A stretch of DNA of 64,000 nucleotides from a bacterium (GTDB lineage: Bacteria > Patescibacteriota > Minisyncoccia > Phycocordibacterales > UBA12088), in assembly GCA_003252295.1 (NCBI GenBank), contig QKEV01000003.1:128701-192700 (forward strand), written 5' to 3'. Shown here piece by piece: positions 17,631 through 42,526 of the stretch (positions within the stretch are counted from its first letter, which is position 1; every line of letters starts with the position of its first letter). A program made the position numbers and the translations under genes. The notes beneath the pieces were generated by a model that searched no databases, was not told where the DNA came from, and saw only the letters and a list, made by a program, of their open reading frames with translations.

Positions 17631-17728
17631 ACATTTCTCTCATGTGTTAGCAAGTGCTATACTAAACACCTCTGCGCGCTCTGCGCGTGGAGGTCTTAGT
17701 ATAGGCGTAACAAATGTAATAAACATCC

Positions 17729-19274: not shown

Positions 19275-20132
19275 ATGTTACAAAGTCTTGCAAAGACCAC
19301 AGCGGTCATTGTGAGCTCCACCGTCTTGGCAACGCTTGCTGTGAACGCTGTTGATATGAACGGCGCATTCTCCCACTCAATGCTTGGAGGACTGCTGTTT
19401 TCTGTTAGTAGTGAAGAAACTGAGACATGTCCTCCAAACATGGTGCTCGTCACACAAGCGCTCGTGCCATTTTGTGTTGATATGTATGAGGTGTCCGCAG
19501 GTGATGCGTGTGTATACGCTGAACCAGCTGATGAAGCAGAAACCATGTTAAATCTCAATGATAGAAAATGCACACCTGTCTCAGAGGTAAACAAAAAACC
19601 ATGGACTAATGTGTCACTCGATCAAGCACAGCAAGCATGTTCACGAGCAGGGAAACGACTTCCAACAGCGAGTGAATGGTACAAGGCAGCAATAGGTACT
19701 CCTGACATGTCCTCTGGTTGGAACGAAGAGCAGTGTAATGTTGCCAATAATCGTGCAGATGGTGCGTCACTAACGGGAGGTGGTATGCGCTGCATTTCTG
19801 ATGCTGGTGCGTACGACATGGTGGGAAACGTCTGGGAGTGGGTAGCTGATACTGTAGATAATGGTGTATGGGATGGGAGAGAGCTACCGATGACAGGTTT
19901 TGTGGCAGGTGTTGATATTGATGGTATACCGTACCTCACAGAACAAACAAAAAATGCAACCTTTAATAATGATAGGTTTTGGATGGATAGTACTATTCAT
20001 GCAGGTGTACTGCGAGGTGGATACTACAACAGTCAGAGTCAATCAGGAGTGTACGCTACCTACATGGCGAGCCCTCCAACATTTAGTGGTGATGCAGTGG
20101 GTTTTAGATGTGTGACAACAGTTCATGAGTAG
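19275..20132 (+). CDS. Secreted FGE-sulfatase (SUMF1 / formylglycine-generating-enzyme) domain protein.
   Basis: Signal peptide. Motifs KRLPTASEWYKAA, MVGNVWEWVAD, LRGGYY and GFRCV match PF03781 hallmarks (RLPTEAEWE, GNVWEW, RGGS., GFRC). Confidence 0.75.
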   Translation: MLQSLAKTTAVIVSSTVLATLAVNAVDMNGAFSHSMLGGLLFSVSSEETETCPPNMVLVTQALVPFCVDMYEVSAGDACVYAEPADEAETMLNLNDRKCTPVSEVNKKPWTNVSLDQAQQACSRAGKRLPTASEWYKAAIGTPDMSSGWNEEQCNVANNRADGASLTGGGMRCISDAGAYDMVGNVWEWVADTVDNGVWDGRELPMTGFVAGVDIDGIPYLTEQTKNATFNNDRFWMDSTIHAGVLRGGYYNSQSQSGVYATYMASPPTFSGDAVGFRCVTTVHE

Positions 20133-22009: not shown

Positions 22010-22232
22010 TTTGGCGACCATCTTCAGTATTTTCGTTGTTAGTTTGTTCACCGTATATCGAATACGGCTTACAAACACAACTCCTCAATACTTCGATATT
22101 CATCCAAAATGTACACTTCTGGAAACTTCAATATGTAACTCTTGAATGAATTCCTTGACGCCTTGAACCTTACTCAAGAAATTAATACCTTGCAGTTCAA
22201 GGGTATAGCTCCTTGGTGCCTTGAATTTGCTT
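22010..22232 (+). repeat. Conserved intergenic element, copy C.
   Basis: tttcgttgtt...ttcaCCGTATatcgaATACGGctt at 22047-22070, then ccttgacgccttgaacctta (22153-22172) and ggtgccttgaatttgc. It lies downstream of the dockerin gene. Confidence 0.65.
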
Positions 22233-22483
22233 TAAAGTATACTGCCAGCTACTTTCGTATTTTCAATTACTCAAGACCAAAACAATCAGGGTTTGTGTTT
22301 TAAATGTAAAAAAGTAAATTAAAAATTATAAAGATAGTGTGGTGGAATATTTTATCCACAAAAGTTTGTGTATTGTTTTTTTAAAAAAAAGTACAAGGAG
22401 TGCTATACTCTAAGTACGGCGCAAACTACATATGCAACGGGGGTTGCTATTACGCGCGTTCTTTAGTCATAGTTCATTAGAAT

Positions 22484-22987
22484 ATGGGTACTTTTATGGA
22501 TAAACTTAAAGGCAAGGGTCTTGTAGACAAGGAGGGGAATCCGATGGATCCTGCATCAGCTCAGCAAAACCAGCAAGCTCAACAAGGAGTGTTGCCTGGG
22601 CATGCTTTGCAGCTCCCAGTTGACGTATTTCAGTCAGATAATGAAATCGTTATTTATGCCCAACTCGCGGGTATGGACATGCAGACACTTGACGTGTCTA
22701 TTGCTGGTGAAAACGACGTCGTGAGTATACAGGGCTCTGCACTCCGGCCAGAGCAGCTCATGCATGACGCAAGTGCCTCACACAATGGTGATTTTACCCT
22801 TGAAGAGTGTCATTGGGGTGACTTTTACCGACAGATCATTCTTCCAGATGAGATAGATCCTGAGCATGCGGAGGCAAAAACAAAAGATGGTGTACTCGTA
22901 TTACGATTGCCACTCCTTGGAAAACAAGCAAAGGGTTTACGATTAAATGTGACTCGTGTAGACGACCACACAGTGCAGAGTCAATAA
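22484..22987 (+). CDS. Small heat-shock protein, Hsp20 / alpha-crystallin family.
   Basis: 167 aa. The alpha-crystallin domain ends ...AEAKTKDGVLVLRLPL. There is no signal peptide. Confidence 0.75.
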   Translation: MGTFMDKLKGKGLVDKEGNPMDPASAQQNQQAQQGVLPGHALQLPVDVFQSDNEIVIYAQLAGMDMQTLDVSIAGENDVVSIQGSALRPEQLMHDASASHNGDFTLEECHWGDFYRQIILPDEIDPEHAEAKTKDGVLVLRLPLLGKQAKGLRLNVTRVDDHTVQSQ

Positions 22988-22988
22988 A

Positions 22989-24473
22989 ATGCTTTGCTCA
23001 TCGCGAAAACATATGAGCAAGGGTGTAAGTATACAACGTAACACAAGGCATCTTGGGAAACTACTCAGTTTGCTTTTTGTGTTTTTACTTGTTTTGGTCT
23101 TGCCGCGACCTTCATACGCGGCGAGCTATGCGTTTTCTCCTGCAACAGGTTCCTATGAGGTGGGTAAGAGTTTTACTGTAAAGGTGATGGTGAATGCTGG
23201 TGGAGACGCAGTGAACACAGGTGATGCTACCATTACATATGATTCGAACTTACTCACCGCTGTGTCTGCTGCAAAAGAATCAGCGTTCAATCTTTGGGTT
23301 ACTGAACCGACCATAAAAGCTGGTACGATAACATTTGCAGGAGGAGGCACCACTGCTATTTCTGGAACAAAAGCAATTGTCACGATCACCTTCAAAGCAA
23401 AGGCTGAGGGTACGGCGACGGTAGCCTTTTCAAAGGCAACACTCTTAGCTGGAGCAGGACAGAATGTTCTTAGTGGTTCTGATGGAGCAACGTTTACTAT
23501 TACACCTGCAGCTGCTACACCGGAACCTACTGCAGATCCGGAGGAGGAGAATCGAAACACAAAGATACCACCACCTGATGCACCTGTTATAAAGAGTACA
23601 ACACATCCTGAGAGTGAAGAGTGGTACGCTGCGTCTGATGCTGCGTTTAACTGGGATATACCGTATGGTGTAACTGCCATGCGTCTTTCCTTTGATCAAG
23701 ATGAGAAGGGTGCTCCTACTGAACAGCACAAGCCACCGATAGGTGAGTGGAAGACGAGTGGTGTAACTGATGGTGTTTGGTATCTCCATGCTGATTTTGA
23801 AAATCGTGGTGGCTGGGGAAGTTCTACTTCCTTTGCGATACATGTGGATACAACACCTCCTGAGGAGTTTAGTGTTTCTGCTGCTGGTGGAGATCTTACA
23901 GCAGAATTGCGTTTTGAAGCAGTAGATGCACTCTCTGGTATTTCATATTATGAGGTGTCTATTGATGATGGTAGTCCACGAGACGTACAGCCAACAGAGC
24001 TTACAGATGGCTATCGACTCACCAATCTTGATCCGGGTGAGCATACGATAGCAGTGACAGCATTTGATATGGCAGGGAATGAACGTTCAGCAGGTGGATC
24101 GGTTGAGGTGACAGGCACAAAACAGGTTGAGGAGGAGGTCTCTGAACCAATAGGATTTGACGCTATCTACTGGGTATCACTCTTGTTCATGGCAGCACTT
24201 GCAGTGGTAATAACCATGCTCATCAAGGAACGTCGCAAGTTTGTTGAAGAAAAAGATCATATTAAACGTGAGACCATGGAGGTAGGTGACCGACTCATAA
24301 ACATTTTTGGTGTACTTCGTGATGAGATTGAGGAAAAGGTGATAGAACTTTCTCATAAGCCAAATATGACCGACAATGAACGTAATATACTCGAGGGCTT
24401 GAAAGATGCACTCGATATTTCAGAAGAGCTTATCGATAAGGAGATCGAGGATGTTAGGAAGCTCCTCAAGTAG
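22989..24473 (+). CDS. Membrane-anchored cohesin-like scaffold protein: signal peptide, cohesin-like domain, Ig/FN3-like domain, TM helix, cytoplasmic coiled-coil tail.
   Basis: SYAFSPATGSYEVGKSFTVKVMVNAGGDAVNTGDATITYDSNLLTAV...GTITFAGGG...IVTITFKAKAEGTATVAF...ATFTI has a cohesin-like beta-sandwich pattern. TM helix IYWVSLLFMAALAVVITMLI. Paralogous to the ORF at 58948 (GEHTIAVTAFDMAGNERS vs GEHVLTVTAFDNAGNSTS). Its ATG directly abuts the Hsp20 stop. Confidence 0.65.
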   Translation: MLCSSRKHMSKGVSIQRNTRHLGKLLSLLFVFLLVLVLPRPSYAASYAFSPATGSYEVGKSFTVKVMVNAGGDAVNTGDATITYDSNLLTAVSAAKESAFNLWVTEPTIKAGTITFAGGGTTAISGTKAIVTITFKAKAEGTATVAFSKATLLAGAGQNVLSGSDGATFTITPAAATPEPTADPEEENRNTKIPPPDAPVIKSTTHPESEEWYAASDAAFNWDIPYGVTAMRLSFDQDEKGAPTEQHKPPIGEWKTSGVTDGVWYLHADFENRGGWGSSTSFAIHVDTTPPEEFSVSAAGGDLTAELRFEAVDALSGISYYEVSIDDGSPRDVQPTELTDGYRLTNLDPGEHTIAVTAFDMAGNERSAGGSVEVTGTKQVEEEVSEPIGFDAIYWVSLLFMAALAVVITMLIKERRKFVEEKDHIKRETMEVGDRLINIFGVLRDEIEEKVIELSHKPNMTDNERNILEGLKDALDISEELIDKEIEDVRKLLK

Positions 24474-24482: not shown

Positions 24483-24535
24483 ATAAATATATAATTAGGT
24501 ATATAACTAATTATATACCTAATTATATACCTACT
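24483..24535. repeat. AT-rich palindromic element (aggtatata ... tatatacct repeats).
   Basis: taggtatataactaattatatacctaattatatacct contains inverted and direct repeats. It lies immediately 3' of the 22989 gene and 5' of the giant gene. Confidence 0.5.
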
Positions 24536-24904: not shown

Positions 24905-27900
24905 ATGTTGAAACGTTTTTCATTTATTTATCGAAACAAGATACCACTCATAGTGGCAACACTCGTTGTGTTCATAGCAACACTCGTTGTATTTGCAGTG
25001 GAAGAGGAGAAAACGATCCATGTTTTTCCAACTGCAGTGAAGAGTGAGAACTGGATGAAAGAGAATAACGCACTTGAGCAGAGTCTTGGTGATCAAGCGG
25101 TACTTGAAGACTTTGATAGAGATAATTCTGCCTTTGTAATCTTTATAGAACATGAAAAACCTGATGAGGTTAAAGAGGAGGTATCAGAGGAAGAGGGTGG
25201 CACTGAGGGTGTCACACCTAATGATGCAGCAGAGGAGACAGAACAAGATGGGGTAACTGAAGAGGTGAATAATGAAGCAGGTGAGAGTACTCCTGCTGAG
25301 GAAGTGATAGAGGAAGAAGAAGTAGAAGAGCAGGAAACAATAGAAGAAGAGGAATCAACTATTGCGCCGATGGAAGATCTCACTATGCATGAGTATCTTT
25401 TTGATCTTGGAAGAGGTTTTGTTGGAAAACAAGCACATGCACAGGAGGTGGTTGAAGATACAGAAGAAGTAGAACAGGTTCCTGAGGAGGTTGAGGAACC
25501 ACAGATGAACAGTGAAGAGGAGGCAGTTGTAGCAGAACCTGTTACAGAAGAAATTGTTGAGGAAGTGTCGGAAGTTGAAGATATACAAACAGACGAGACG
25601 TCTTCAGGTGTGGAAGAGACGGTATCTGAGCCAGAGGAAGGTATTGCTGATGAGATAATGGATGAAGAAGTGGTAGAGGATGATACTGAAAATTCTGACC
25701 AGGTGGAAGAAGTACAGGAAGAGCAAGAGATTAAGGATGTGGTGAGTGATGAAGAGGTGATAACCGATACTTCCGTTGAGGAGGGTGTAGATGAGGATGT
25801 CCGTGTATGTAAGGTGCTCGGTACAGAATGCTACACACTTGAGTTTGATGGCTTCGATATCGGCAGTGTGCTTTCAGAGGAAACGGTAACAGGGTACACC
25901 TTGAATGCATCACTCGCAGCGCACTCTGATATAGATAGGTTTACGGATGATAAGGTACTCGTTCGTTACTTCTACAAGGGTAAGTGGCACCTTGCTGGTG
26001 AGATTGCCATTCGAGATACCATTTCAAACTTTGAGAATGGTGGTCATTTCCGTTTTGCTCTGCCTGATCTTTCAGGATGGGATGCGCTCCATACCTTTAA
26101 AGTTGAATTTGAGTTTGTTCGTCAGAGTGATGTGCGAACTGATTTCTATCTCGACAGTGTTTGGGTGGAAACAACATACCGGACTGATGGAAACGAAGGT
26201 CCTGTGTTTCCTGACAATGTACTTGAAGAACTCGAACACCTCGAGCAGGCACGTCGAGGTGATTTGTTGCGGGTAGATGATGACACGGTCATTACACTTC
26301 CATACGCAACTACCGATGGTGATGATCTGGTCATTCGTTCAAGTGAGGTAGCACTCGAGAGTCCTGGTACTGGTGAGATGTACTTTTCGGTGACCAATAT
26401 TGGAGATTCCAAGAAAGACTTCTCACTTTCGTTTTACATGCCGGATGAAGAGAGTGAACCACAGATGCTGCGGCAGTGGATGTACAACATTCCAGAAGAG
26501 GAAGAGGTGATTGAGTATGGCAGTCTTGCTCAGTACTGTGAGGGGACGTGGGTGCCGGATGAAGATGAGCCAGAGCGCTACTTGTGTGCTGAAACCGGAG
26601 TTGATCTCTACTGTAGCGAGCTCAACAGTGATATGACGAACTGTATTGAGAACAATGTTGAAGTTGGGCGTCATACAGAAACAGCTTACCGTGAGGGTTG
26701 GCATGAGTACCTGCTTGATCAAGAAGTGAAGGAGTCATCTAATGAAGAGGAAGTTGGAGAAAATGGAGAAACTGCTACTGATGCTATGTCTGCACAGGTA
26801 GCAGCAACAGAAGATGAGAAAGAAAAAGAGAGTTTCATTGACCGAGTCCGACGTTGGTTTAGTTTTACCAAACAGCCGGAACGTGATGCTGCTGTTACCT
26901 ACACTTCAAAAAATACTTTTACCGTTGCTCCTGACCAAACACTCTTCTTCTCGTCTCGTATTGAGTACCCGCAGATATCTGAGGGTGGTTTTGCGGTAGT
27001 TGCTACAGCTCGTAACGAGGCACCAGCACTTGATATTTCTTGGAAGAGTGATTGGCGTTACCGACTACCTGTTGAGTTTGATAGGGACATGGTCGGAGAT
27101 CGTCTCGATCTAAAACTCACTGTTGATGATGTACCACACATGTTTTCACATGTGGGTGATTGGTCGCAACTCTTCATACGTGAAGCTGATTCACATAGTG
27201 CAGAGTGGCTTCCGTTCACCCATACGGTGGTGAGTGACAGTAGGGTAGAGCTTTCAGTCGATCTGAGCACACTCTCTTCTGGTGCGCATGAACTTGAGGT
27301 CTACTATGGTGATGATGAAGTAATGAAAGAAGAGCGTAAGTTGCGAGGCAGTAAGCTGTTTATTAATCCTGAAGCACTATCTCTTGGTAGAGATGCTGAA
27401 GGTGCAGCAGATGATCTTACTGAACTCGGTTACAGAGTTGGTACGGTACAAGAGGTGGTGCTTGATGATGAGCCAAACCATCGGGTCCTTGTTGGGGAGG
27501 AGGAAGATGGCAGTTTCCCAGAAGATGGAAAACTTGTCTTTGCGTACCGTTCAAACAGAGCTGAGTCAAGGGAAGGAGTGTTTGCCGATGTTCCTGACAC
27601 GAATGATTTCAGTATTGCGCGCGCAACCCTTATTCATGCAGGTAAGGGTGAGGTACCTGATACAAGTGTGATCAAAACGGTTGGCAATGAGTGGGTGCTC
27701 AACACAGGCATGAGCAAGCGCACCTTTACCCCAGGAAAGTATATTCTTGAGGTTGAGGTGGTTGAGGGAGATACACGATATGTTGATACACAGGAGTTCT
27801 ACTGGGGTGTACTCACCTGGAACACAACAAAGAGTGTCTATGAAGTAGGTGAGACCGCTACCATGCACATGGGAGTTCTTGCTGACAGTGGTAGTACTGT

Positions 27901-30900
27901 TTGCGATGCAACGCTTGAACTCACACTCCGTACCCCAAGTGGTGAGGAGGTAACGGTACCTGTGTCAGCAAGTGGTGTGTGTGTTGGTAACACTGTTGTT
28001 GGTGTACCGGACTACAGTGCTGCGTACACACTCGGAGAGGTGGGGACCTACGATGTACTCCTCAAGTCCATTGGCAAGGATGGCACGGTACTTCATCAAA
28101 TAGAGGATAGTATCGTCGTCGAAACAAATACACCGTATATTATTGAGCGAACAGGACCAACGAGAATCTATCCAGTTGCTGATTACATAATGATGCTTGC
28201 GGTTACCACAGATAACACGTACGTGGGAACTGTACGTGAGGTAGTGCCGGCGTCATTTAGGGTGTACGACTACGGAGATGCTCGTATCTACACTGAAGGA
28301 AATGAGACATTCATTGAGTGGGATGTGGCACTCATTGGCGGCGAACGTGCTGAACTTTCATACAGCTTCGATGCACCCGATATAAGTCCGTACGTGTACC
28401 GACTTGGTCCTGCAACACTTGGAGATGTATTTACTGAACTGCGGGAGTGGCAGATAGCTTCAGATGCCACAGGAAACATGCTCATCCTCTGGGATGATGG
28501 TGCTACGGTGCCTACCGGTTGGACCTGTGTATCGTGTACCTCTGGAGATCCGTTCTATCAGCGGTTTATCATGGGAAGCTCCACGTACAACACCACGGGT
28601 GGTGCGACGACGCATAATCATTCAGCAACAGGAAGTGTCTATACTAGTGGTGCCGGAGCGACAGAGAGTCTTGGTAGTGGTGTCATTGAGGTGGTTGGTC
28701 ACACACATACCTACACGCCAACTATTTCTTCAGAGAACAACTTGCCGTTGTATCGTCAGCTTCGCGTGCTCGAGTACAACTCTGCCGGTGAACCTACAGA
28801 GCTACCGGCAGGTGCAATAGTGTACTTTGATGCCACAGTGCCGAGTGGTTGGACTCAGTACGCAGCTCAGGATGGGTACTACGTGTACGGTGAAAATACG
28901 CCGGGAACGACAGGTGGGTCAAATACTCATAGTCACACCATTTCAGGTTCAACAGATACTTCAGTTGGAGACTCGGTGGGAAGCCGAGGAGGTGGCACAC
29001 AAGCTTCTGCTGCAACAGATGCACATACGCATACGGTTTCTGGTGGTACACTCACAGATTCAAATGAACCACCGTACGTTGAGATGATTCTTGGTAAACT
29101 TGATGCAACAACAACACTGCCAAATGGCATGATAGGTATGTGGACTGATGAAGTGCCGACTGGTTGGTTAACCATTTCGAGCTCAACGGAGACGCTCGAG
29201 AACAAGTTTATAAAACCTGCTGCAACATACGGTAGTGAGGGAGGATCAGCAGCACATGCTCACAGCGATGTTACAGGACTCACCTCAAGTTTGGTAGGTG
29301 GTGCAGCGAGTAGAGCTGGTAGCTCTGGAGTAGAACCACATACGCACACTGTTGATGTGACGAGCTTCTCAACGGAATCGAGTCTGCCTCCGTACGCTAC
29401 TGCTATATTTGGAAAACGTTTCTCCGATGACCCTATTTACACGCAGAACTACTACCGCTTCTACGTGAATGAAGACGCAGAACCACCAACAGATCCATGG
29501 CCAGCAGGAGTGACTGATCTTGCTGAGAATGCTCGTATCACGACGAGCGACTACACGAGTAAGGGTGATGTGGTACGTATGCGCATGTCGGTCAGTGTCA
29601 CCAATGCAACCTCAACCGCAGATACTGATGCCTTCAAGTTGCAGTATGCAGCCGGGTCAACCTGTAGTGACTCAGGACTCGTTTGGTACGATGTTGCACC
29701 AATAGGTTCAACGACGGCACCATGGCGAGGCTACGACAATAGCTCGCTCACCGATGGTACTGAGGTGAGTTCCACAACACTTTCCGTTTCAGATGTGTTT
29801 GAAACATACGAAGAGGAGAATCCTTCAGCGAGCACCACCAACGACATTGAGATAGACCAAGAAGGTGAGTGGGACTGGGTGGTGCAGCACAACAATGCAA
29901 GTGCGGGAACCGACTACTGTTTCAGGATGGTGCAGAGTGATGGAAGGGTGTTCTCTGGGTACAACAACTATCCGCAACTCATCACCGATGAGGCGCCGGT
30001 CGCTGCGACACTCCTTACGCCGTTTGATAATGAGAAAGCTTCAAGTACAGCACCAGTCTTCACCTTTTACACCACTGATCCTGAGGGAGATGCTATCCAC
30101 TACCAGATACAAGTAGATGACGATTATCTCTTTGGAAGTCCTGTAATAGATGCAAATTCAATAACTTCGACGAGTGATTTTGGAAACGTGGATACACCTG
30201 CAGATAAGGCACCGTTCAACTCGGGAGACACTATGAAGTACGATGGGGCTTCAGGTCTTTCCAACAATACGACGTACTGGTGGCGTGTTCGAGGTCGTGA
30301 TACAGAGGGTTCTGACCAATGGGGTGATTGGTCCGACGCAAGGAGCTTCACCACTGATACGTCGGTCACTATTTCTACTTGGTTCCAGACAACTGATGAA
30401 CAATTTGATACTGATACACTCACTGGTACAGAAAGTTCCGGTGGTTCTGATCAGGTAGTGCTTACTACGGGAAGTACAACAGGTTCGGTTGTTTCAACAG
30501 CTATTGATTTTGATTGGGGCACTGATGGAAACGCATGGGGATACCTCTACTTCACCGATACTGAGATATCGAGTGATTTGAAGTACAGTATTGAGTACTA
30601 TGATACCGATAGTGAAGAGTGGGGCTTGATACCTGATACAGATCTTTCTGGCAACTCTACTGGATTTGATACCTCACCAGTCACACTTCTTTCTCTAGAT
30701 ACATCTACCTATAACCAGATTCGCTTGGTTGCTGATCTTACCAATAGTGGTGCAAGTCCAATTCTCCATGACTGGACGGTGGAGTGGGGAACGAGGGTGC
30801 AGCAGCCGACACTTATGAAATTGTTTGATAATGAGAAGACGGGAACAACAACACCATCATTTGAGTTTACTACGACTGATCCACAAGATGATGATCTGGT

Positions 30901-39900: not shown

Positions 39901-42526
39901 GCACTACAGTTTTGCAGGTATGGATACAGAAGGGGTTCAGTTCAGTGGAAACCCAAGCATAACAACACTCAATGATGGTACCTACACGCTCGATGTGGAT
40001 GGAGGTACTATGATCACCGTATCTAGTTCAACCATCAACAACAACCCTTCACGAACGTTTGATGGTCTCAGCTTCTCAACTGGAGCAGGTGTCTCATCTG
40101 GATATAACGTAACACTGAGTGGTACCACAAATAATATCTGGCAGTTTACAAACCATACGGGAAACTACGATGGTGAGGATTACGACAATGATGGTGTTGA
40201 TGCTTGCGGTCAGATCAGGTGGTCTGATAGCGCTTGTCTCGAGGTGAGTCAGACACACTACCGCTTTAGAAATGATGATGGAGGCGAGGGTGCACCGAGT
40301 GGCGAGTGGTTCAATGCGAGTTGGGATAAACGACGACTCATTAAGGTATTCAACACGAGTGGTCCAGCAGTTACTAACTACGCCTTTAAGGTTGCAATAC
40401 CGTATGACGGAGATATGCAAGCTGACTTTGATGATGTTCGGTTTACCGATAGTTCAGGAACAACTGAACTTTCATACTGGTTTGAAGATGTACAACTCTC
40501 AGCCACGGCAACAGCATGGGTAAAGATACCAAGTTTGGAGGCAAATTCGGTAAATGAGATATACATGTACTATGGTAATGCACTCGTTGCGAGTGGTGAG
40601 AATGGTGCAGACACCTTCAGTTTCTTCGATGATTTTGAGGATAATGATATTTCTGAATACTCGGGAAGCGCGCAGGACCTTTCATACTTTGCTACAAATG
40701 CGAGCTATAACTACGAAGGGTCGTACGGTCTTGCAGCATCAGGAGGTAATACTGATAAGCAGACGAATGGCGGTATTTATCAAACAAGTACGACATTTTC
40801 ACAAGGTTCTACTGTCCGTTTCTTCCAAAAAATAACAGCAGGCACTGACGATGAACCATGTACACTCTTTGGTGTACAGGGTTCTGGACAGAACTACGCT
40901 GTGTGTCTTGATCAGTATCCATCAGACACGATTGTTATATCTCGAGATGTAACGAGTAACAGTGATGATGGAAGTGCAACGGAACTTGCATCAACAGGAG
41001 TGACCTGGTCAAGCGGTTGGTATGAGGTTGAAATAAACTGGCTCACCGATGACTCTATAGATGTTACTGTGTACGATTCTACAGGAAGTGTTTTTGCAAC
41101 AGTGTCGACAACTGACAGTACGTACACTTCCGGAGGTATGGGATTTGCCTTTTGGTACCAGAGTGAAGGGTGGGATTTCTACACGGTGCGTCCATACGTA
41201 GCAAGTGACCCAAGTTATACTATTGGTGCTTCTGAGCAACCGGAGGGCGGTGCTACATGGAAGGTTGCGCAGGATACACCGCTCACTGGACAGGCTCCAA
41301 ACGAGAACTTTAGGGTGCGCTTTACTGTTGAAAATACTGGTACACAAATAACAGGGCAGACTTGGCGGTTGCAGTATGCTCCAAAGAGTACGTACGGTGC
41401 TTGTGAGGGAGTACCATCTGTAAACTACAATGATGTACCGAGTGCTGTCTCATGTGGACTTTCTCCTGTGTGTATGACCTCGAGTATTGATATTACTGAT
41501 CAGGAGACCACAACAGAACATCTCTCAACAAACCTTTTTGGTACATTTGTGAATGGTTACATGACCGAGTCACCGTCAAATCAAACAACAGCTATGACCC
41601 TTGAGCAAAATGAGTACACGGAAACAGAGTACTCAATAGAGTTTACCGATTATGCTACTGATTCAAACTACTGTTTACGTACTACAAATGGTGGTACTGA
41701 GGTTGATACCTACCTTCGTGTTGCTGAAGCTTCTGTACGTTTTGCTCCTGTTATTACCAACTGGCGTTTGAATGCTGATGAGGATATTTCACTTGTTGAG
41801 GGAGAGACAACAACAGTCTATGCAACCGGTACCGTGAGTGACCTAAATGGTTTCGGAGATATGCTCTATGCGACAAGTACTATTTACCGTTCAGGAGTTG
41901 GTTCTGATTGCACCGCAAATGACAACAACTGCTATCCAATTACCTCACTCTCGTGTCCATTTACTAACTGTTCAGGCAATTCTTGTGATGTTGAGTGTAG
42001 TGCAGAAATTCAATACTTTGCTGAACCTACTGATGCTGGTACCTATGCTGGTGAGCACTGGGAGGCAAGTCTCTTTGTGATTGATACAACAAACAACTAT
42101 GCTACTGACACATCTGTTGCAGTTGATCTCAATACACTTTGGGCACTCTCGCTCACCTCGAATGATATCAACTACGGAACGCTTGGTATTGGGGAAGATA
42201 CTGGAGCAGTAAACGCCACAACGAGTTTACAAAATACAGGAAACGATAATGTAGATGTAGAAGTTGAGGGAACCAATATGACCGCTTCAGGTAGCTCTAT
42301 TCCAGTTGGAAATCAAATGTTTGCTACATCGAGCTTTACCTACTCAAGTTGTGTTATTTGTACAGCACTTTCAGGTAGTGCGAGTCCATATGAGGTAGAT
42401 CTGATAAAACCAACTTCTGCTTCAACACCGGTAACTGACACCTTATACTGGGGTATCTACGTACCAGTAGGTACTGCAGGAACATCTCATTATGGTCAAA
42501 ACACGTTCTATGCTATTGGTGACTAA
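24905..42526 (+). CDS. Giant (about 5870-5883 aa) N-terminally membrane-anchored surface protein. Modules in order: acidic low-complexity stalk; 3 tail-collar (MdpB-like) domains; FN3-like repeats; a 7-bladed lectin-like propeller; beta-helix-like 60-aa repeats; 3 tandem 2.3-kb repeats; DUF2341 plus LamG-like; a WxL-like C-terminal domain.
   Basis: One uninterrupted ORF of 17.6 kb, with a GTG at 24875 or an ATG at 24905 as start. TM helix IPLIVATLVVFIATLVVFAV follows the start. The C-terminal 300 aa are paralogous to the ORF at 52612 (EIQYFAEPTDAGTYAGEHWE vs LWYIADPTDVGSLYAGEDWR). Confidence 0.85.
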   Translation: MLKRFSFIYRNKIPLIVATLVVFIATLVVFAVEEEKTIHVFPTAVKSENWMKENNALEQSLGDQAVLEDFDRDNSAFVIFIEHEKPDEVKEEVSEEEGGTEGVTPNDAAEETEQDGVTEEVNNEAGESTPAEEVIEEEEVEEQETIEEEESTIAPMEDLTMHEYLFDLGRGFVGKQAHAQEVVEDTEEVEQVPEEVEEPQMNSEEEAVVAEPVTEEIVEEVSEVEDIQTDETSSGVEETVSEPEEGIADEIMDEEVVEDDTENSDQVEEVQEEQEIKDVVSDEEVITDTSVEEGVDEDVRVCKVLGTECYTLEFDGFDIGSVLSEETVTGYTLNASLAAHSDIDRFTDDKVLVRYFYKGKWHLAGEIAIRDTISNFENGGHFRFALPDLSGWDALHTFKVEFEFVRQSDVRTDFYLDSVWVETTYRTDGNEGPVFPDNVLEELEHLEQARRGDLLRVDDDTVITLPYATTDGDDLVIRSSEVALESPGTGEMYFSVTNIGDSKKDFSLSFYMPDEESEPQMLRQWMYNIPEEEEVIEYGSLAQYCEGTWVPDEDEPERYLCAETGVDLYCSELNSDMTNCIENNVEVGRHTETAYREGWHEYLLDQEVKESSNEEEVGENGETATDAMSAQVAATEDEKEKESFIDRVRRWFSFTKQPERDAAVTYTSKNTFTVAPDQTLFFSSRIEYPQISEGGFAVVATARNEAPALDISWKSDWRYRLPVEFDRDMVGDRLDLKLTVDDVPHMFSHVGDWSQLFIREADSHSAEWLPFTHTVVSDSRVELSVDLSTLSSGAHELEVYYGDDEVMKEERKLRGSKLFINPEALSLGRDAEGAADDLTELGYRVGTVQEVVLDDEPNHRVLVGEEEDGSFPEDGKLVFAYRSNRAESREGVFADVPDTNDFSIARATLIHAGKGEVPDTSVIKTVGNEWVLNTGMSKRTFTPGKYILEVEVVEGDTRYVDTQEFYWGVLTWNTTKSVYEVGETATMHMGVLADSGSTVCDATLELTLRTPSGEEVTVPVSASGVCVGNTVVGVPDYSAAYTLGEVGTYDVLLKSIGKDGTVLHQIEDSIVVETNTPYIIERTGPTRIYPVADYIMMLAVTTDNTYVGTVREVVPASFRVYDYGDARIYTEGNETFIEWDVALIGGERAELSYSFDAPDISPYVYRLGPATLGDVFTELREWQIASDATGNMLILWDDGATVPTGWTCVSCTSGDPFYQRFIMGSSTYNTTGGATTHNHSATGSVYTSGAGATESLGSGVIEVVGHTHTYTPTISSENNLPLYRQLRVLEYNSAGEPTELPAGAIVYFDATVPSGWTQYAAQDGYYVYGENTPGTTGGSNTHSHTISGSTDTSVGDSVGSRGGGTQASAATDAHTHTVSGGTLTDSNEPPYVEMILGKLDATTTLPNGMIGMWTDEVPTGWLTISSSTETLENKFIKPAATYGSEGGSAAHAHSDVTGLTSSLVGGAASRAGSSGVEPHTHTVDVTSFSTESSLPPYATAIFGKRFSDDPIYTQNYYRFYVNEDAEPPTDPWPAGVTDLAENARITTSDYTSKGDVVRMRMSVSVTNATSTADTDAFKLQYAAGSTCSDSGLVWYDVAPIGSTTAPWRGYDNSSLTDGTEVSSTTLSVSDVFETYEEENPSASTTNDIEIDQEGEWDWVVQHNNASAGTDYCFRMVQSDGRVFSGYNNYPQLITDEAPVAATLLTPFDNEKASSTAPVFTFYTTDPEGDAIHYQIQVDDDYLFGSPVIDANSITSTSDFGNVDTPADKAPFNSGDTMKYDGASGLSNNTTYWWRVRGRDTEGSDQWGDWSDARSFTTDTSVTISTWFQTTDEQFDTDTLTGTESSGGSDQVVLTTGSTTGSVVSTAIDFDWGTDGNAWGYLYFTDTEISSDLKYSIEYYDTDSEEWGLIPDTDLSGNSTGFDTSPVTLLSLDTSTYNQIRLVADLTNSGASPILHDWTVEWGTRVQQPTLMKLFDNEKTGTTTPSFEFTTTDPQDDDLVYEINWSTDYTFITGITSRVSDTDTGFQNITNGVDTSPFTSGDDIRFTVQGSDALTNGSTYWWRVRAKDPSGGDTWSDWSEKWSFTVDTSVVASTWFQTTNEQFDTDGLFGITTLGGNAEVATSVTDVLVAYGQAGSNAPKYRFWDGSSWGNEYSALDVGAVPYWVVTHAHPSAEMYALATIGLDADVNVQLYEDGSWGSLQEMTTTISNTNARGVDIAFEQSSGDLMVAYCDGDADPSYRVYNESTGWGTVGAINLSSTNNCEWIQLAADPVSDEIIVVSLDSTGSQYEAQVWNGTAWGNATIMGSMLTSGHEGIAVEYEESGDQAIVAVSDGNGNRIRYNTWNGTTWGTVSTEALGDNYEWGTFARDDGTDAMTLCYVDFDTDIGALFWTGSAWVAYTERETVGSTNSARPVACQYETEGVRDGYLMMSYSDDTNARYQAYNGATWSTEASISTITDSAPVQSVRSDDGLILSMFFDGTNGRYDFSYWNGSSWSTAETLESSPSVTGAPYKEPFMMAPRNSAVEGTMYSSAINYSDGTGPQWDLVSWNDSEPGASTLIYQVQYYDDSTSNWLLVPDSALLGNSVGTSTSPIDISNLSTVTYSQIRIKASFTCDSGSCPSLYDWTVTWSEGFTVSGIAREYDQTTAVTAGSIAIAVNGSLQVGKTGTVSGGVWTISNVTAFEDDVITVWIDGAAEANEAVGVTRYDGLGPITGMTLYERHLAIGSDDHPTISNTDLAYFDYSVSGDEDILHDVDINNDLYVCATGQATCGNEQLWVQDGSVFEPATSTSEFVYTHDVDIEGTIEGDSNTFEVSGSWTNEGIFNADGSSVVFDATSTSESIDSSSATTSSFYDVTFGQGASTATWSLSSPLDVNGSLTLASGTFAPGAGYTISVAEDLTVESAGVFTKNTGTTTLDGTLQSYWTDSSATLQDMGTVVVDGTSKTVSLGSDVRATTVVIGADDILALGGNTLELTGSFDNNGSLVPQLGEVLFIGTTVGNTVDGGASSFYDLSFNGSGGNWSFPSGRVSVSNDVSIVDGIVTMPNGTSTIGGSLTVTGGSFVHNNGVVYFTSNTTETITANSSLFYDMKFNGNGNWTITDTNATSSNDVSLLSGTLHAPTGTFAIGGSLIATGGIYNHSSGTLRLYGSGVEVLRVNNSNLNDVLIDGTGSYTMTDTNLSILGDLDMYTAGVTFPTGVLTLSGSLNNVSGSFTHNSGSVLFNATSTGHSVTVNGSPFYNVTFDAAAGGWTVTNSATSANNWSLLAASSFTAPNGGTVEVQGDFLNEVGGVETNWTGSTLYLNSGATSTINTKVLGADSYATLQVGANTGVKMWNSDASSYLIDSSGYLYSQDHAGSDGDLYVWGSYVRDSGTEYWSYATDFDGEDITGSERAVSVLFADGAYATVTEATLEILGTAAATTTIDRQGSGSYSVVLSDGAVNAQYYSFANLNSNGFTLTGSSSITKLGYGAYTLGVNGGSLITVSSTTLDANPARQWSGMNFATTTAISGYNVSLIGTPVSYWTFKDHTGNLSGEEYDNDPGGDPGNLRWDDSAFSITISGTVYSDVASGVPSFCDGSTDTVFLKVDGGGSWSTSCDAGTGAYSISGVDFSGDATLTLYLKSAGTTGAVVTKTPNGDIADMDIYEHYTIVRHEDVSPLAIADMDTFDSGDDSDVPFTVAVGTPNTLTVASDSGLYIWNGKEFAPDGNITLLGGGAGASYDGTLRFGTSSVLTAQGIETYTVGGSWIAVQPSTFIKAESTVVFSATTGGKILAPASTFNNVTFNGTGGVWSIASSTTVRGEIDLSAGTVTGSADLTVFLGPVTGAGVFDMTGGTVTILSGSDFGGTVDWTFNNLIFSTTTATTTTKVGAGNVVIDGTLTIGTNNTLEAGNVEWFFGGSGDVLIIDGVFDPQTSTTTYNGSSDLTVAATDYHMLNFAPTSGAPTYTIEAGNFSVDENMFVGSGSTVTVTADTNDPLITVLGDVTIAGNGTYIAAGSNDLFIGGSYDNNGTFTANAGGVIFNSTDTGETIAAGSSPLHHVYFTSDTGGWTLTENLTASGNFVLASSSDWTLASGSTLQVQGVFNNHVGGSATTWTGSTLTLNSGTSYSINGSGHTGDSYSTLNIGANTDVKMWYSSSTSYSVNASGSLYSQDHSGVDGDLYIFGDFVQSSGNQYWSYATDFDGSDLSGGTERKVDVYVANGSDVTLSGGTLELLGTSTATTTITNQGSGIYGFAVTGGTIDAEYYALRNLDATGLNISGSPTITSLSYGDYELAVNGGSLITVAGSAITANQLRIMYNNRFATSSGALSGTNVTATGVTGSSWRFTSHYGGLDGEGYDTDPGGDPGYVIWDDSAAQITISGNVLGTDEATVSSACDGSSQVVRFLINGASPQTTSCNAGTGYYAFTGIVYNVGDVFTVYLDTNGGAKASNVTVDPITNINDMHLYENRAIVRHESGTPVTITDLAVYDSDQDSDIPYDADAGSFTVTTGGKLIVWSGKSFAPGGDVTVASLGNGTSYDGDIELKDTASFIAAGTENHTIGGSFISGSGASLTAANSTFNFTSTSTGETIDTNTSAFANITFNGSGADWTFLEANATTTGDVTITNGTVTLATSSLAVGGSFVNTDTFIGTTTVFNFTSATAESVTFGGYDTGSLNFTGTGSWIMTDTDATTTGSVYIGNGLVILPSGTLAVRTSFENDGADMYHTGTLNLYGSEAAQTLAFGSSTAGSVLISGGGSWIFGNTQATTTGSVTIENGGLTAPSEALGIGGSLVSSGIFNANAGLLNFFATTTGHTVAVNGAVLGTVYFDGVGGGWTVAGSATSTSDWRLLHGSSFEMASSTILEVGGEFENIIGGSATNWTDSTLYLNASGTTFAINGKTDNGDSYANLIIGENTEVSMWNSSGATTTVDSTSYLYSQDHAANDGDLYIYGTYILTSGNEYWSYATDFDGTSLGGSSRAVDVRIASSSSVTVTGGTLEMLGVSGGTTTVDVIGGTGGYGFAIAGGTFNAEHYSFAGMDTEGVQFSGNPSITTLNDGTYTLDVDGGTMITVSSSTINNNPSRTFDGLSFSTGAGVSSGYNVTLSGTTNNIWQFTNHTGNYDGEDYDNDGVDACGQIRWSDSACLEVSQTHYRFRNDDGGEGAPSGEWFNASWDKRRLIKVFNTSGPAVTNYAFKVAIPYDGDMQADFDDVRFTDSSGTTELSYWFEDVQLSATATAWVKIPSLEANSVNEIYMYYGNALVASGENGADTFSFFDDFEDNDISEYSGSAQDLSYFATNASYNYEGSYGLAASGGNTDKQTNGGIYQTSTTFSQGSTVRFFQKITAGTDDEPCTLFGVQGSGQNYAVCLDQYPSDTIVISRDVTSNSDDGSATELASTGVTWSSGWYEVEINWLTDDSIDVTVYDSTGSVFATVSTTDSTYTSGGMGFAFWYQSEGWDFYTVRPYVASDPSYTIGASEQPEGGATWKVAQDTPLTGQAPNENFRVRFTVENTGTQITGQTWRLQYAPKSTYGACEGVPSVNYNDVPSAVSCGLSPVCMTSSIDITDQETTTEHLSTNLFGTFVNGYMTESPSNQTTAMTLEQNEYTETEYSIEFTDYATDSNYCLRTTNGGTEVDTYLRVAEASVRFAPVITNWRLNADEDISLVEGETTTVYATGTVSDLNGFGDMLYATSTIYRSGVGSDCTANDNNCYPITSLSCPFTNCSGNSCDVECSAEIQYFAEPTDAGTYAGEHWEASLFVIDTTNNYATDTSVAVDLNTLWALSLTSNDINYGTLGIGEDTGAVNATTSLQNTGNDNVDVEVEGTNMTASGSSIPVGNQMFATSSFTYSSCVICTALSGSASPYEVDLIKPTSASTPVTDTLYWGIYVPVGTAGTSHYGQNTFYAIGD
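28472..29420 (+). other. Three tandem phage tail-collar / MdpB-like domains inside the giant protein.
   Basis: Repeats of G.I..W.d.vPtGW...(sg. F)...G....g..GG...H.H...G, e.g. LILWDDGATVPTGWTCVSC...TTGGATTHNHSATGS; AIVYFDATVPSGWTQY...TTGGSNTHSHTISGS; MIGMWTDEVPTGWLTISS...EGGSAAHAHSDVTG. Each is followed by ...HTHT...LPPY....G(K). Confidence 0.6.
31283..32405 (+). other. Seven-bladed beta-propeller with RSL/AAL/PLL-type fucose-lectin-like blades, inside the giant protein.
   Basis: Seven approximately 50-aa repeats: KYRFWDGSSWGNE, SYRVYNESTGWGTV, YEAQVWNGTAWGNA, RIRYNTWNGTTWGTV, GALFWTGSAWVAY, RYQAYNGATWSTE, RYDFSYWNGSSWSTA. They match the (R)vY...nG..W.t blade signature of Ralstonia RSL / Aleuria AAL / Photorhabdus PLL lectins. 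Confidence 0.5.
33300..34760 (+). repeat. Degenerate repeats of about 60 aa (180 nt), beta-helix-like, inside the giant protein.
   Basis: Recurrent units F(Y)D(V/L/M).F.G.GG.W(S/T)......(T/V).NDVS...G.(L/V).(A/M)P.G(T/L).(T/A)(I/L)GGSL...GG.F.HN.G.(V/L).F.. Confidence 0.6.
34762..40250 (+). repeat. Three in-frame tandem repeats of about 2.3 kb (units near 34762-37149 and 37150-39442; third unit from 39443 to about 40250 is truncated).
   Basis: Each unit starts T(N/T)WTGSTL(Y/T)LNSG and contains YLYSQDH.G.DGDLY..G....SG..YWSYATDFDG...L.GGT.RAV.V, then Y..D.DPGGDPG...WDDSA, then ITISG.V....A.V.S.CDGS. The units are about 60-70% identical at protein level. Confidence 0.85.
40320..41200 (+). other. 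DUF2341-like domain followed by a LamG / concanavalin-like domain, inside the giant protein.
   Basis: WDKRRLIKVFNTSGPAVTNYAFKVAIPYDGDMQADFDDVRFTDSSGTTELSYWFEDV...ATAWVKIPSL...NEIYMYYGN matches the DUF2341 pattern (W.yR..i.i.....l.nf.v.......F.D.RF.d..G..L.Y.iE.....A.vWVk.P.l....IY.YYGN). Confidence 0.5.

What the first reader, a model, noticed from the sequence alone, without database searches (positions are those of the whole stretch)
24905..42526. 5883-aa membrane-anchored mosaic adhesin combining phage-type receptor-binding domains, a lectin propeller and huge internal repeats
A single 17.6-kb ORF, anchored by an N-terminal TM helix, strings together the following modules. An acidic Glu-rich stalk. 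Three tandem tail-collar/MdpB-like domains with HxH motifs (28472-29420), normally a phage tail-fibre or receptor-binding module. FN3-like repeats. A 7-bladed RSL/AAL/PLL-like lectin propeller (31283-32405). Beta-helix-like 60-aa repeats. Three 2.3-kb tandem repeats. DUF2341 plus LamG-like. A C-terminal domain shared with three other surface proteins in this window. The combination of carbohydrate-binding lectin modules with domesticated phage receptor-binding domains in a cellular protein of this size is unusual. It would fit a cell-cell or host-attachment fibre.
Basis: partly seen in the sequence, partly recalled or inferred. Interest (0 to 1): 0.85.

Follow-up and report, generated by a model that had tools for sequence, protein, structure and literature searches.

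The report
Conserved giant surface fibre of Patescibacteria
This is a real 5,873-residue surface protein from a conserved, unstudied family of giant proteins in ultra-small (CPR/Patescibacteria) bacteria. It combines a histidine-rich module also found in phage tail-tip proteins with a propeller also found in pilus operons, so it is most likely an attachment fibre.

Summary
The 17.6-kb ORF is real (ATG 24905 to stop 42526, 5,873 aa) and is not an assembly chimera. Independent metagenome proteins of 5,600-6,200 aa align with it end to end at 44-49% identity. About 25 Patescibacteria genomes carry the gene behind the same upstream cluster: FGE-sulfatase-like, dockerin protein, HSP20, cohesin membrane protein.

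Corrections:
- The propeller has 8 blades, not 7.
- The short repeat is ~75 aa, not 60.
- LamG is not confirmed.
- The C-terminal module is detectably shared with one other window protein, not three.

The HxH module is not a Pfam tail-collar domain. It is clearly homologous to a three-repeat module in phage tail proteins (phiAsp2 Pas29, hhalign 99.1%), and at least 145 IMG/VR contigs encode relatives. One of these sits at the TMP-Dit-tip position.

The propeller shows no sequence-profile link to PLL/RSL/AAL lectins. Its relatives are pilin-like proteins, one of them inside a type IV pilus operon.

Best reading: an attachment fibre of an episymbiont. Function is inferred, not shown.

The parts
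24905..42526 (+). Giant gene: 5,873 aa from ATG 24905 (an in-frame GTG at 24875 would add 10 aa)
   Evidence: ORF list and translation. Full-length orthologues P0154, P0231, P0139, P0186 and P0179.
24935..25009 (+). Only hydrophobic segment (aa 11-35): signal-anchor or long signal peptide
   Evidence: Kyte-Doolittle scan. An equivalent basic-then-hydrophobic N-terminus is present in the orthologues.
25010..25894 (+). Acidic Glu/Val/Asp-rich low-complexity stalk (aa 36-330)
   Evidence: 27.5% Glu, net charge -95.
25895..28459 (+). N-terminal region with no family match (aa 331-1185), partly conserved in orthologues
   Evidence: No Pfam hit. Orthologues are collinear at 25-46% identity.
28460..29419 (+). 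HxH triple-repeat module: 3 x ~108 aa, each with GG-x3-HxH and a second HxH
   Evidence: Self-BLAST. Alignment A1 with conserved His. AF2 pLDDT 82, pTM 0.79. hhalign to phage Pas29 99.1%. Foldseek against BFVD: Pas29 E 2.8e-14. 3,432 representatives.
29432..30004 (+). Domain of unknown fold (aa 1510-1700), repeated at aa 5455-5612 and shared with ORF 65-7081
   Evidence: BLAST 40% identity to ORF 65-7081.
30008..30355 (+). FN3-like domain 1 (Ig_Rha78A_N)
   Evidence: Pfam PF25788, 43.8 bits for the protein against a cut-off of 27.4.
30356..30808 (+). Unassigned domain, paralogous to aa 2525-2641
   Evidence: Self-BLAST 31-42% identity.
30809..31156 (+). FN3-like domain 2 (Ig_Rha78A_N, sub-threshold on its own)
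   Evidence: Pfam 23.4 bits. 43-49% identical to domain 1 plus its following segment.
31280..32464 (+). Eight-bladed beta-propeller (aa 2126-2520), motif [WY]-x-G-[ST]-x-W-[GS] in each blade
32477..32827 (+). Unassigned domain (aa 2525-2641), paralogue of aa 1860-1975
   Evidence: Self-BLAST.
32828..40300 (+). Repetitive Gly/Thr/Ser/Asn-rich shaft (aa 2642-5132), presumed beta-solenoid, with ~75-aa sub-repeats
   Evidence: Motif spacing 73-76 aa. No Pfam or PDB sequence match. The fold was not tested.
33911..36205 (+). Super-repeat 1 (aa 3003-3767)
   Evidence: Self-BLAST 33-52% identity to repeats 2 and 3.
36206..38596 (+). Super-repeat 2 (aa 3768-4564)
   Evidence: The same triplication is present in the orthologues.
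38597..40300 (+). Super-repeat 3, truncated (aa 4565-5132)
40424..40651 (+). DUF2341 domain (aa 5174-5249)
   Evidence: Pfam PF10102, 86 bits, E 2e-24.
40682..41224 (+). Possible jelly-roll domain after DUF2341 (aa 5260-5440). LamG not confirmed.
   Evidence: Only a sub-threshold SO2946-like_C hit at E 9e-4.
41267..41740 (+). Second copy of the aa 1510-1700 type domain (aa 5455-5612)
   Evidence: BLAST to ORF 65-7081.
41735..42523 (+). C-terminal ~260-aa module ending YWG-x-x-VP-x-G...G-x-NTF-x-A
   Evidence: 31% identity to the C-terminus of ORF 52612-54492. 70 homologues, including stand-alone ~305-aa proteins with a hydrophobic, signal-peptide-like N-terminus.
22989..24473 (+). Conserved upstream neighbour: cohesin-domain protein with a C-terminal TM helix
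   Evidence: Pfam Cohesin E 3e-11. Syntenic in at least 25 loci.
22484..22987 (+). Conserved upstream neighbour: HSP20
20125..21996 (+). Conserved upstream neighbour: dockerin-domain protein
19275..20132 (+). Conserved upstream neighbour: FGE-sulfatase-domain protein
16452..18799 (+). Conserved upstream neighbours: a 392-aa secreted protein and a TM protein with weak WxLIP_PGBD similarity

Best explanation
The gene encodes a member of a conserved family of giant (about 5,500-6,200 aa) extracellular fibre proteins of Patescibacteria (CPR bacteria).

Shown:
- The ORF is intact.
- Its whole domain order is conserved end to end in independent genomes.
- It sits in a conserved cluster with cohesin, dockerin, HSP20 and FGE-sulfatase-like genes.
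- Its only hydrophobic segment is N-terminal.
- It contains an HxH triple-repeat module homologous to one in phage tail proteins.
- It contains an 8-bladed propeller homologous to pilin-like proteins, one of which lies in a type IV pilus operon.

Inferred mechanism: the N-terminus holds the protein in, or exports it across, the membrane. The polyanionic Glu-rich stretch acts as a flexible spacer through the envelope. A chain of compact domains (unassigned domains, HxH module, FN3-like, propeller) is followed by a ~2,500-residue repetitive shaft of three ancient super-repeats. These project the distal DUF2341, possible jelly-roll and C-terminal modules away from the cell.

The fibre then attaches the small cell to a host cell or surface. 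Binding would come from the propeller, the HxH module and/or the C-terminal tip.

The three repeats of the HxH module probably pack as a single-chain pseudo-trimer. Its paired histidines would then clamp one or two metal ions, as HxH motifs from three chains do in T4 gp37. This would make it a rigid, stable binding or connector unit.
For: Real and conserved gene:
- P0154 aligns q2-5871 in one HSP at 44% identity. P0231, P0139, P0186 and P0179 align over more than 4,700 aa at 45-49%.
- About 30 GTDB loci have the module 750-1,330 aa into ORFs that run more than 3,400 aa to the end of the fetched locus.
- Upstream synteny holds in at least 25 loci.

Taxon: loci are from Saccharibacteria, Paceibacterota, Kaiserbacteria and similar groups; the best is 65% identical. 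One orthologue is named only 'DUF2341 domain-containing protein [Candidatus Paceibacterota]'.

Extracellular topology: a single N-terminal hydrophobic segment, conserved in orthologues.

HxH module:
- His residues are conserved. 136 of 153 module instances keep 5-6 HxH motifs.
- The three repeats are modelled as one unit with pTM 0.79.
- Homology to phage Pas29: hhalign 99.1%, E 1.7e-18; Foldseek E 2.8e-14.
- 145 IMG/VR contigs encode relatives.
- L021 has the order TMP, Dit, HxH protein.
- HxH motifs bind iron in T4 gp37 (PMC11705849).

Propeller:
- AF2 pLDDT 92.7.
- Some homologues carry N_methyl pilin signals.
- P0090 sits between PilB/PilC-type genes and pilin genes.

Epibiotic Saccharibacteria need surface adhesins (PMC10633639).
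Against: - No experiment bears on this family, and cultivated Southlakia shows no obvious orthologue context.
- If the protein is N-anchored, the HxH module and propeller lie in the proximal third, not at the tip. That is odd for primary receptor binders.
- In many phage proteins the module is N-terminal. That end usually attaches a fibre to the tail rather than to the receptor.
- 57 of 153 modules have only 5 HxH motifs and 15 have 4. Two complete His6 sites are therefore not universal.
- No lectin, adhesin or enzyme family match exists for about 85% of the protein.
- Whether the N-terminal segment is cleaved is unknown.
Confidence: 0.6

Rival explanations
1. It is a structural envelope component, such as a surface coat, an S-layer-associated spacer or a scaffold of a cohesin-dockerin surface complex. 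It would have no specific role in binding a host.
For: It is conserved with cohesin and dockerin genes in one cluster. The window is full of other surface proteins. Most of the protein is a repetitive shaft. The C-terminal module also occurs as small secreted proteins in paralogue clusters, which is typical of structural subunits.
Against: No dockerin or cohesin is detectable in the giant itself. The propeller's relatives are pilus-operon proteins and the HxH module's relatives are phage tail-tip proteins, both from contexts of contact with other cells.
Confidence: 0.2
2. It is a lytic or depolymerising fibre. The long repetitive region would be a right-handed beta-helix with polysaccharide-degrading activity, like phage tailspikes. 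It would open the host wall for the episymbiont.
For: The 75-aa Gly/Thr/Asn-rich sub-repeats are compatible with a beta-helix. The protein shares a module with phage tail-tip proteins. Giant proteins of predatory bacteria have been linked to cell-wall degradation (bioRxiv 10.1101/2023.11.21.568195).
Against: No pectate-lyase, glycosidase, peptidase or lysozyme family hit appears anywhere in the protein. No PDB sequence match exists for a super-repeat. The fold was not predicted.
Confidence: 0.1
3. It is a phage or prophage structural gene (a tail fibre) lying in a cellular contig.
For: The HxH module is homologous to phage tail proteins.
Against: PHROGs gives no hit for any part of the protein. 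The neighbours are cellular genes: HSP20, histidine kinase, ABC transporter, cohesin and dockerin. Synteny is conserved across about 25 Patescibacteria genomes. The N-terminal membrane segment is not a tail-fibre feature.
Confidence: 0.02
4. The ORF is an assembly chimera, or an artefactually fused or expanded repeat gene.
For: It has large internal repeats and comes from a metagenome-type source.
Against: The repeats are only 33-52% identical at protein level, and no DNA tandem repeat of period up to 500 bp is detected in them, so they cannot mis-assemble. Independent assemblies give collinear full-length orthologues with the same triplication.
Confidence: 0.01

Closest known systems
Pas29/Pas28 tail proteins of Actinoplanes phage phiAsp2 (PHROG phrog_5795, 'tail protein') and their relatives on IMG/VR contigs
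   Same: They share a three-repeat module with GG-x3-HxH and second HxH motifs, an [IV]P-x-G-x-I...P-x-GW start to each repeat, and a PPY end. Support: hhalign 99.1% over 264 columns and Foldseek E 2.8e-14, TMq 0.63.
   Different: The phage versions usually carry 10-12 HxH motifs rather than 6. They sit in 400-1,600-aa virion proteins at the tail tip and have no membrane anchor. The window module does not reach the phrog_5795 HMM directly. The function of the phage module is itself untested.
HxH metal sites of T4 long tail fibre tip gp37 and short fibre gp12 (the tail-collar archetype)
   Same: Both have paired His-x-His motifs in a beta-rich, threefold arrangement. In gp37 they bind iron ions (PMC11705849).
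Pilin-like beta-propeller proteins of Patescibacteria and others, one in a type IV pilus operon (functionally comparable to PilY1/PilC tip adhesins; that comparison is from general knowledge)
   Same: The propeller is homologous across its full length at 24-46% identity, E down to 1e-103. Free-standing members checked have N_methyl pilin leaders. P0090 lies between PilB/PilC-type genes and pilins.
   Different: Here the propeller is an internal domain of a giant protein, with no pilin leader. No homology to PilY1 itself was tested or seen.
PLL/BP39L/CV39L (and RSL/AAL) fucose-binding propeller lectins
Giant bacterial and archaeal surface adhesins (RTX adhesins such as MpIBP and SiiE, Ebh/Embp, nanohaloarchaeal giant proteins, Omnitrophota giant proteins)
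   Same: All are very large, modular and extracellular, with repetitive extender regions plus ligand-binding modules, and are often the largest gene in a small genome.
   Different: This protein has no RTX/T1SS signal, no LPXTG motif and no BIg/Ig-repeat extender. Its module set is different (HxH triple repeat, 8-bladed propeller, 780-aa super-repeats, DUF2341). It is conserved as a single orthologous family with its own gene cluster.

Membership tests
Phage tail collar domain (Pfam PF07484 Collar; MdpB-like) | Match to the PF07484 profile | tested here: not met
   No Collar hit for the module or for any single repeat, even at E<=10. None for the 2,200-aa chunks.
Phage tail collar domain (Pfam PF07484 Collar; MdpB-like) | Homology or fold similarity to the archetype, T4 gp12, or to other solved collar domains | tested here: not met
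Pas29-type phage tail protein HxH module (phrog_5795) | Profile-level homology across all three repeats | tested here: met
   hhalign 99.1%, E 1.7e-18, 264 columns. tblastn E 0.01.
Pas29-type phage tail protein HxH module (phrog_5795) | Similar predicted fold | tested here: met
   Foldseek against BFVD: Pas29 E 2.8e-14 with TMq 0.63, Pas28 E 5.1e-14.
Pas29-type phage tail protein HxH module (phrog_5795) | Direct match to the phrog_5795 HMM | tested here: not met
   No PHROG hit at E<=0.01 for the window module. The viral relatives L021 and L004 do match.
Pas29-type phage tail protein HxH module (phrog_5795) | Encoded in a phage tail gene module | tested here: not met
   The window neighbours are cellular and syntenic across Patescibacteria. 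The module is shared, but the gene is not a phage gene.
gp37-type HxH metal-binding fibre segment | Six His from three HxH motifs coordinating a metal on a threefold axis | not testable with these tools
   Six HxH motifs lie in three equivalent repeats.
PLL/RSL/AAL lectin propellers | Beta-propeller fold | tested here: met
PLL/RSL/AAL lectin propellers | Six or seven blades | tested here: not met
PLL/RSL/AAL lectin propellers | Sequence or profile relationship to the lectin families | tested here: not met
   The A2 profile against all PDB sequences matches only pilin N-termini. phmmer against PDB finds nothing. Pfam finds nothing relevant.
PLL/RSL/AAL lectin propellers | Sugar binding between blades | not testable with these tools
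   Conserved Trp, Arg, Glu and Tyr columns exist, but this is not evidence of a site.
Pilin-like propeller proteins of Patescibacteria and other phyla | Full-length homology of the propeller | tested here: met
   97 homologues; 24-46% identity over 80-100% of the domain in the better hits.
Pilin-like propeller proteins of Patescibacteria and other phyla | N-terminal class III (N_methyl) pilin leader and location in a pilus operon | tested here: not met
   Here the propeller is internal to the giant protein. The leader was seen in P0059 and P0060 and the operon context in P0090.
DUF2341 (PF10102) | Score above the Pfam gathering threshold | tested here: met
   86 bits against 23.4, E 2e-24.
LamG / Laminin_G_3 jelly roll | Pfam match | tested here: not met
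   No Laminin_G family at E<=1. Only SO2946-like_C at 19.7 bits, below its cut-off of 27.
FN3-like Ig_Rha78A_N (PF25788) | Score above the Pfam gathering threshold | tested here: met
   43.8 bits against 27.4 for the chunk holding both copies. The second copy alone scores 23.4 bits.
RTX / T1SS giant adhesins | C-terminal RTX nonapeptide repeats and T1SS signal, with a BIg extender | tested here: not met
   No HemolysinCabind, RTX or Big hits. The C-terminus is a ~260-aa module with no family match.
Sortase-anchored (LPXTG) adhesins | C-terminal LPXTG plus hydrophobic tail | tested here: not met
   The sequence ends ...NTFYAIGD, and the only hydrophobic segment is N-terminal.
Cellulosome-type dockerin-bearing subunit | Dockerin domain in the giant that could bind the adjacent cohesin protein | tested here: not met
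   No Dockerin Pfam hit and no D-x-[ND]-x-[DN]-G loop motif.

The most novel reading that the evidence does not exclude
The HxH triple repeat is a previously undescribed, single-chain, metal-clamped pseudo-trimeric host-recognition module. It circulates between phage tail tips and the giant surface fibres of episymbiotic Patescibacteria and DPANN archaea. Viruses and ultra-small cellular symbionts would then use the same hardware to recognise cell envelopes. The fibre family and its cohesin-dockerin cluster would be a conserved attachment organelle of CPR bacteria.
Probability: 0.25. Interest if true: 0.8.

Novelty: new variant of a known kind. Interest (0 to 1): 0.55.

Why it matters
How CPR/Patescibacteria and DPANN cells find and hold their hosts is largely unknown beyond type IV pili.

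This locus defines a conserved, database-visible but unstudied family of ~6,000-aa surface proteins with a conserved accessory cluster. That makes it a concrete candidate attachment structure that can be tested in cultivable relatives.

It also delimits two domain families with no match in the Pfam copy used here. One is the HxH triple repeat, with about 3,400 50%-identity clusters, shared with phage tail proteins. The other is an 8-bladed propeller shared with pilus-operon proteins.

If the HxH module is a binding unit, its sharing between phages and episymbionts would link two kinds of parasites of the same hosts. If it is only a rigid connector, the result is still a useful annotation of a large 'hypothetical' family.

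Tried and rejected
- Pfam, NCBIfam and PHROGs on the whole protein in chunks and on sub-regions gave only Ig_Rha78A_N and DUF2341.
- phmmer and profile searches against PDB for the HxH module, the propeller, a super-repeat and the C-terminal third found nothing meaningful.
- The tail-collar idea was rejected.
- A specific PLL/RSL/AAL relationship was rejected, leaving only generic propeller similarity.
- An exact-sequence look-up of the downstream 227-aa gene, meant to identify the source contig, found it is not on record.
- The first genome scan with alignment A1 failed for lack of a conserved stretch. It was repeated with the closer set A3.
- I looked for an orthologue context in the Southlakia Tn-seq tables (dockerin protein SEML1_0315, HSP20 SEML1_0020) and found no giant neighbour.
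- Literature searches for a description of this family, or of phage-like modules in CPR adhesins, found none.
- Tandem Repeats Finder found no DNA-level repeat in the super-repeats.
- Promoter and terminator scans around the gene ends were uninformative.
- A dockerin motif search in the giant was negative.
Full report
**Observation.**
The window contains one uninterrupted reading frame from 24875 (GTG) or 24905 (ATG) to the stop at 42526 on the + strand. The quoted 5,883 aa belongs to the upstream GTG. Residue numbers below count from the ATG, so window position = 24905 + 3(n-1).

A frame of this length at 45% GC cannot be open by chance.
- three ~108-aa repeats at aa 1192-1504;
- a duplicated FN3-like unit (aa 1702-1852 matching 1969-2120);
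- a duplicated unassigned domain (aa 1808-1975 matching 2457-2641);
- ~50/100-aa periodicity at aa 2125-2500;
- three super-repeats with offsets of 765 and 797 aa (starts near aa 3003, 3768 and 4565) at 33-52% identity.

Tandem Repeats Finder, which covers periods up to 500 bp, reports no DNA tandem repeat in the super-repeat region, so the copies are old and cannot mislead an assembler.

The only hydrophobic segment is aa 11-35. Residues 33-330 are 27.5% Glu with net charge -95. Pfam recognises only Ig_Rha78A_N (FN3-like, two copies) and DUF2341. NCBIfam and PHROGs recognise nothing.

**The gene is real and belongs to a conserved family.**
A scan of one genome per GTDB species with the HxH module found 51 loci. 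Almost all are Patescibacteria (Saccharibacteria, Paceibacterota, Kaiserbacteria, Kazan, Dojkabacteria), with a few Woesearchaeota and others. The best is 65% identical, so the window's own genome is not among them, but its phylum is clear.

In about 30 loci the module lies 750-1,330 aa into an ORF that runs on for more than 3,400-4,900 aa to the end of the fetched DNA. These ORFs are collinear with the window protein at 44-59% identity over thousands of residues.

An exhaustive profile search of 1.84 billion representatives returned complete proteins of similar size. P0154 (5,997 aa) aligns with residues 2-5871 in a single HSP at 44%. P0231, P0139, P0186 and P0179 (5,625-6,229 aa) align over more than 4,700 residues at 45-49%, through to the last residues. 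The only name any source gives is 'DUF2341 domain-containing protein [Candidatus Paceibacterota bacterium]'.

The genes upstream are conserved in the same order in at least 25 of the loci:
- a 392-aa secreted protein;
- a membrane protein (17729-18799);
- one or two FGE-sulfatase-domain proteins;
- a dockerin protein;
- HSP20;
- a cohesin protein with a C-terminal TM helix.

An assembly chimera, a pseudogene and a prophage gene are therefore excluded for practical purposes.

**The HxH module (window 28460-29419).**
Each repeat starts with [IV]P-x-G-x-I...P-x-GW, has GG-x3-HxH, then a Gly/Ser/Thr-rich loop, a second HxH, and ends in PPY. The histidines are the most conserved columns. Among 153 near-complete modules in the best 150 representatives, 79 have six HxH motifs, 57 have five and 15 have four.

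AlphaFold2 with 14 sequences models the three repeats as one unit with equivalent strand order (pLDDT 82, pTM 0.79). Only the three inter-HxH loops have low confidence.

It is nevertheless a module of phage tail proteins:
- tblastn against 50,697 phage genomes finds Pas29 of Actinoplanes phage phiAsp2. Its depositors annotated it as a possible receptor-recognising protein with HXHY motifs.
- hhalign of the family profile against Pas29 gives 99.1% probability and E 1.7e-18 over 264 columns spanning all three repeats.
- Foldseek against predicted viral structures puts Pas29 and Pas28 first, at E ~1e-14 and TMq 0.6.
- A scan of IMG/VR found 145 contigs encoding relatives. The 38 loci examined span 30-72% GC, and their complete ORFs are roughly 400-1,600 aa, mostly with 10-12 HxH motifs.
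- On contig L021 the gene order is tape-measure protein, Dit, then the HxH protein, which matches phrog_5795 'tail protein'. This is the tail-tip position of a siphophage.

The family has 3,432 50%-identity clusters at E<=1e-3. The module also occurs in small secreted proteins next to TasA-like (Peptidase_M73) and signal-peptidase genes. A Woesearchaeota giant protein contains it twice.

So 'phage-type' is right and 'tail-collar' is wrong. 'Receptor-binding' is an untested annotation, and 'domesticated' is undetermined.

HxH motifs from three chains bind iron in the T4 gp37 fibre tip (PMC11705849). Three equivalent repeats in one chain, each with two HxH motifs, suggest a single-chain pseudo-trimer with up to two His6 sites. 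This is inference.

**The propeller (window 31280-32464).**
There are eight ~50-aa blades with a [WY]-x-G-[ST]-x-W-[GS] motif. AlphaFold2 with 43 sequences gives pLDDT 92.7 and pTM 0.92.

The 97 sequence relatives are mostly ~560-aa proteins of Saccharimonadales, other Patescibacteria, Verrucomicrobiota and others. Two of those scanned carry a prokaryotic N-methylation pilin leader, and the family profile matches PilA N-termini in the PDB. P0090 lies between PilB- and PilC-type genes and four pilin genes; P0060, the other one checked, has no pilus genes nearby. The propeller is thus a module that elsewhere rides on a type IV pilus, which fits a contact or adhesion role. No ligand can be named.

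**The rest of the protein.**
The region aa 2642-5132 is Gly/Thr/Ser/Asn-rich, with a sub-repeat spaced 73-76 aa rather than 60. It has no Pfam or PDB sequence match. A beta-solenoid is plausible but untested.

DUF2341 is solid at 86 bits. The segment after it gives only a sub-threshold SO2946-like_C hit, so LamG is not confirmed.

A ~190-aa domain at aa 1510-1700 recurs at aa 5455-5612 and in ORF 65-7081.

The last ~260 residues are shared with the C-terminus of ORF 52612-54492 (31% identity), but not detectably with two further window proteins. The same module ends other proteins, and it also exists as stand-alone ~305-aa proteins with a hydrophobic, signal-peptide-like N-terminus, encoded next to other ~300-aa unannotated proteins. 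It has no TM, LPXTG or RTX feature.

**Interpretation.**
The best-supported reading is a cell-surface fibre of an episymbiotic Patescibacterium. It would be exported or anchored by its N-terminus and spaced from the membrane by a polyanionic linker. A chain of compact domains and a long repetitive shaft would extend it, with several candidate binding modules: propeller, HxH module and C-terminal tip.

Cultivated Saccharibacteria depend on surface adhesins and pili for epibiotic growth (PMC10633639), but that work does not describe this family. I found no paper that does.

Points that weaken an adhesin reading are stated in the evidence against. If the protein is N-anchored, the two 'binding' modules are proximal rather than distal. 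In many phage proteins the HxH module is at the N-terminal, tail-attachment end. About 85% of the protein has no functional homologue.

Rivals that remain open are a structural or scaffold role in a cohesin-dockerin surface complex, and a depolymerising beta-helix fibre.

**Novelty and score.**
Giant modular surface proteins of small symbionts and predators are a known kind. This one is a conserved orthologous family with its own accessory cluster. It is built from modules that are not in the libraries searched here and, as far as I could find, are not described.

One of these modules is shared on a large scale with phage tail tips. I rate it a new variant of a known kind, of moderate-to-good interest. 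The protein alone is not very surprising for a CPR genome. The phage-episymbiont sharing of the HxH module and the conserved cluster are concrete, testable leads.

Noticed in passing
window 16452-24473: A gene cluster lies directly upstream of the giant gene: a 392-aa secreted protein, a TM protein, an FGE-sulfatase-domain protein, a dockerin protein, HSP20, and a cohesin protein with a C-terminal TM helix. It is conserved in the same order in at least 25 Patescibacteria genomes. It may encode a surface complex that works with the fibre.
   Followed up: partly
window 17729-18799 (paralogues 12218-13654 and 13617-15011): Three paralogous membrane proteins with a C-terminal TM helix. One gives a weak, near-full-length hit to WxLIP_PGBD (PF06030, E 0.012, below threshold). 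This recalls the WxL/Csc surface-complex operons of Gram-positive bacteria.
   Followed up: partly
window 65-7081 and 16452-17630: A second very large surface protein (2,338 aa, no Pfam hit) shares a ~190-aa domain with the giant. Its C-terminus ends with the same '...Y-x-A/S-x-[LV]TYI-x-[TV]PVF' motif as the 392-aa protein.
   Followed up: partly
window 55786-56973, 57933-58970, 58948-60828, 61520-62260 (minus strand): The same 64 kb holds further cohesin- and dockerin-domain proteins, so the region is a dense island of cohesin-dockerin surface proteins.
   Followed up: no
L001 5339-10037 (ENA contig k141_396212); also L002: Small (~480-520 aa) HxH-module proteins sit beside a Peptidase_M73 (TasA/camelysin family) gene and a signal peptidase S26 gene. 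Their N-termini resemble TasA/camelysin signals (my recollection; not tested). This looks like a different, fibre-like deployment of the module.
   Followed up: no
P0124 (= ORF in L121, Woesearchaeota MAG): An archaeal 5,808-aa protein carries two HxH triple-repeat modules and repeated DUF2341 units, but is otherwise unrelated to the window protein. The module therefore crosses domains of life among ultra-small symbionts.
   Followed up: partly
L138 4323-6173; L139 8001-10781: The giant's C-terminal ~260-aa module also occurs as stand-alone ~300-aa proteins with a hydrophobic, signal-peptide-like N-terminus. They are followed by other ~300-aa unannotated proteins, possibly subunits of a surface structure.
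   Followed up: partly
window 24484-24533: An AT-rich 12-bp tandem repeat (about 4 copies) lies just after the cohesin gene stop, inside the 430-bp intergenic region before the giant gene. Its function is unknown.
   Followed up: no
whole window: There are no tRNA genes in 64 kb. Nearly all ORFs are on the + strand and GC skew is positive throughout.
   Followed up: no
table (P0032, P0035, P0040 and others): Some propeller homologues carry a precomputed Pfam label, PF26696.1. That family is absent from the local Pfam copy, so its name and definition could not be checked.
   Followed up: no
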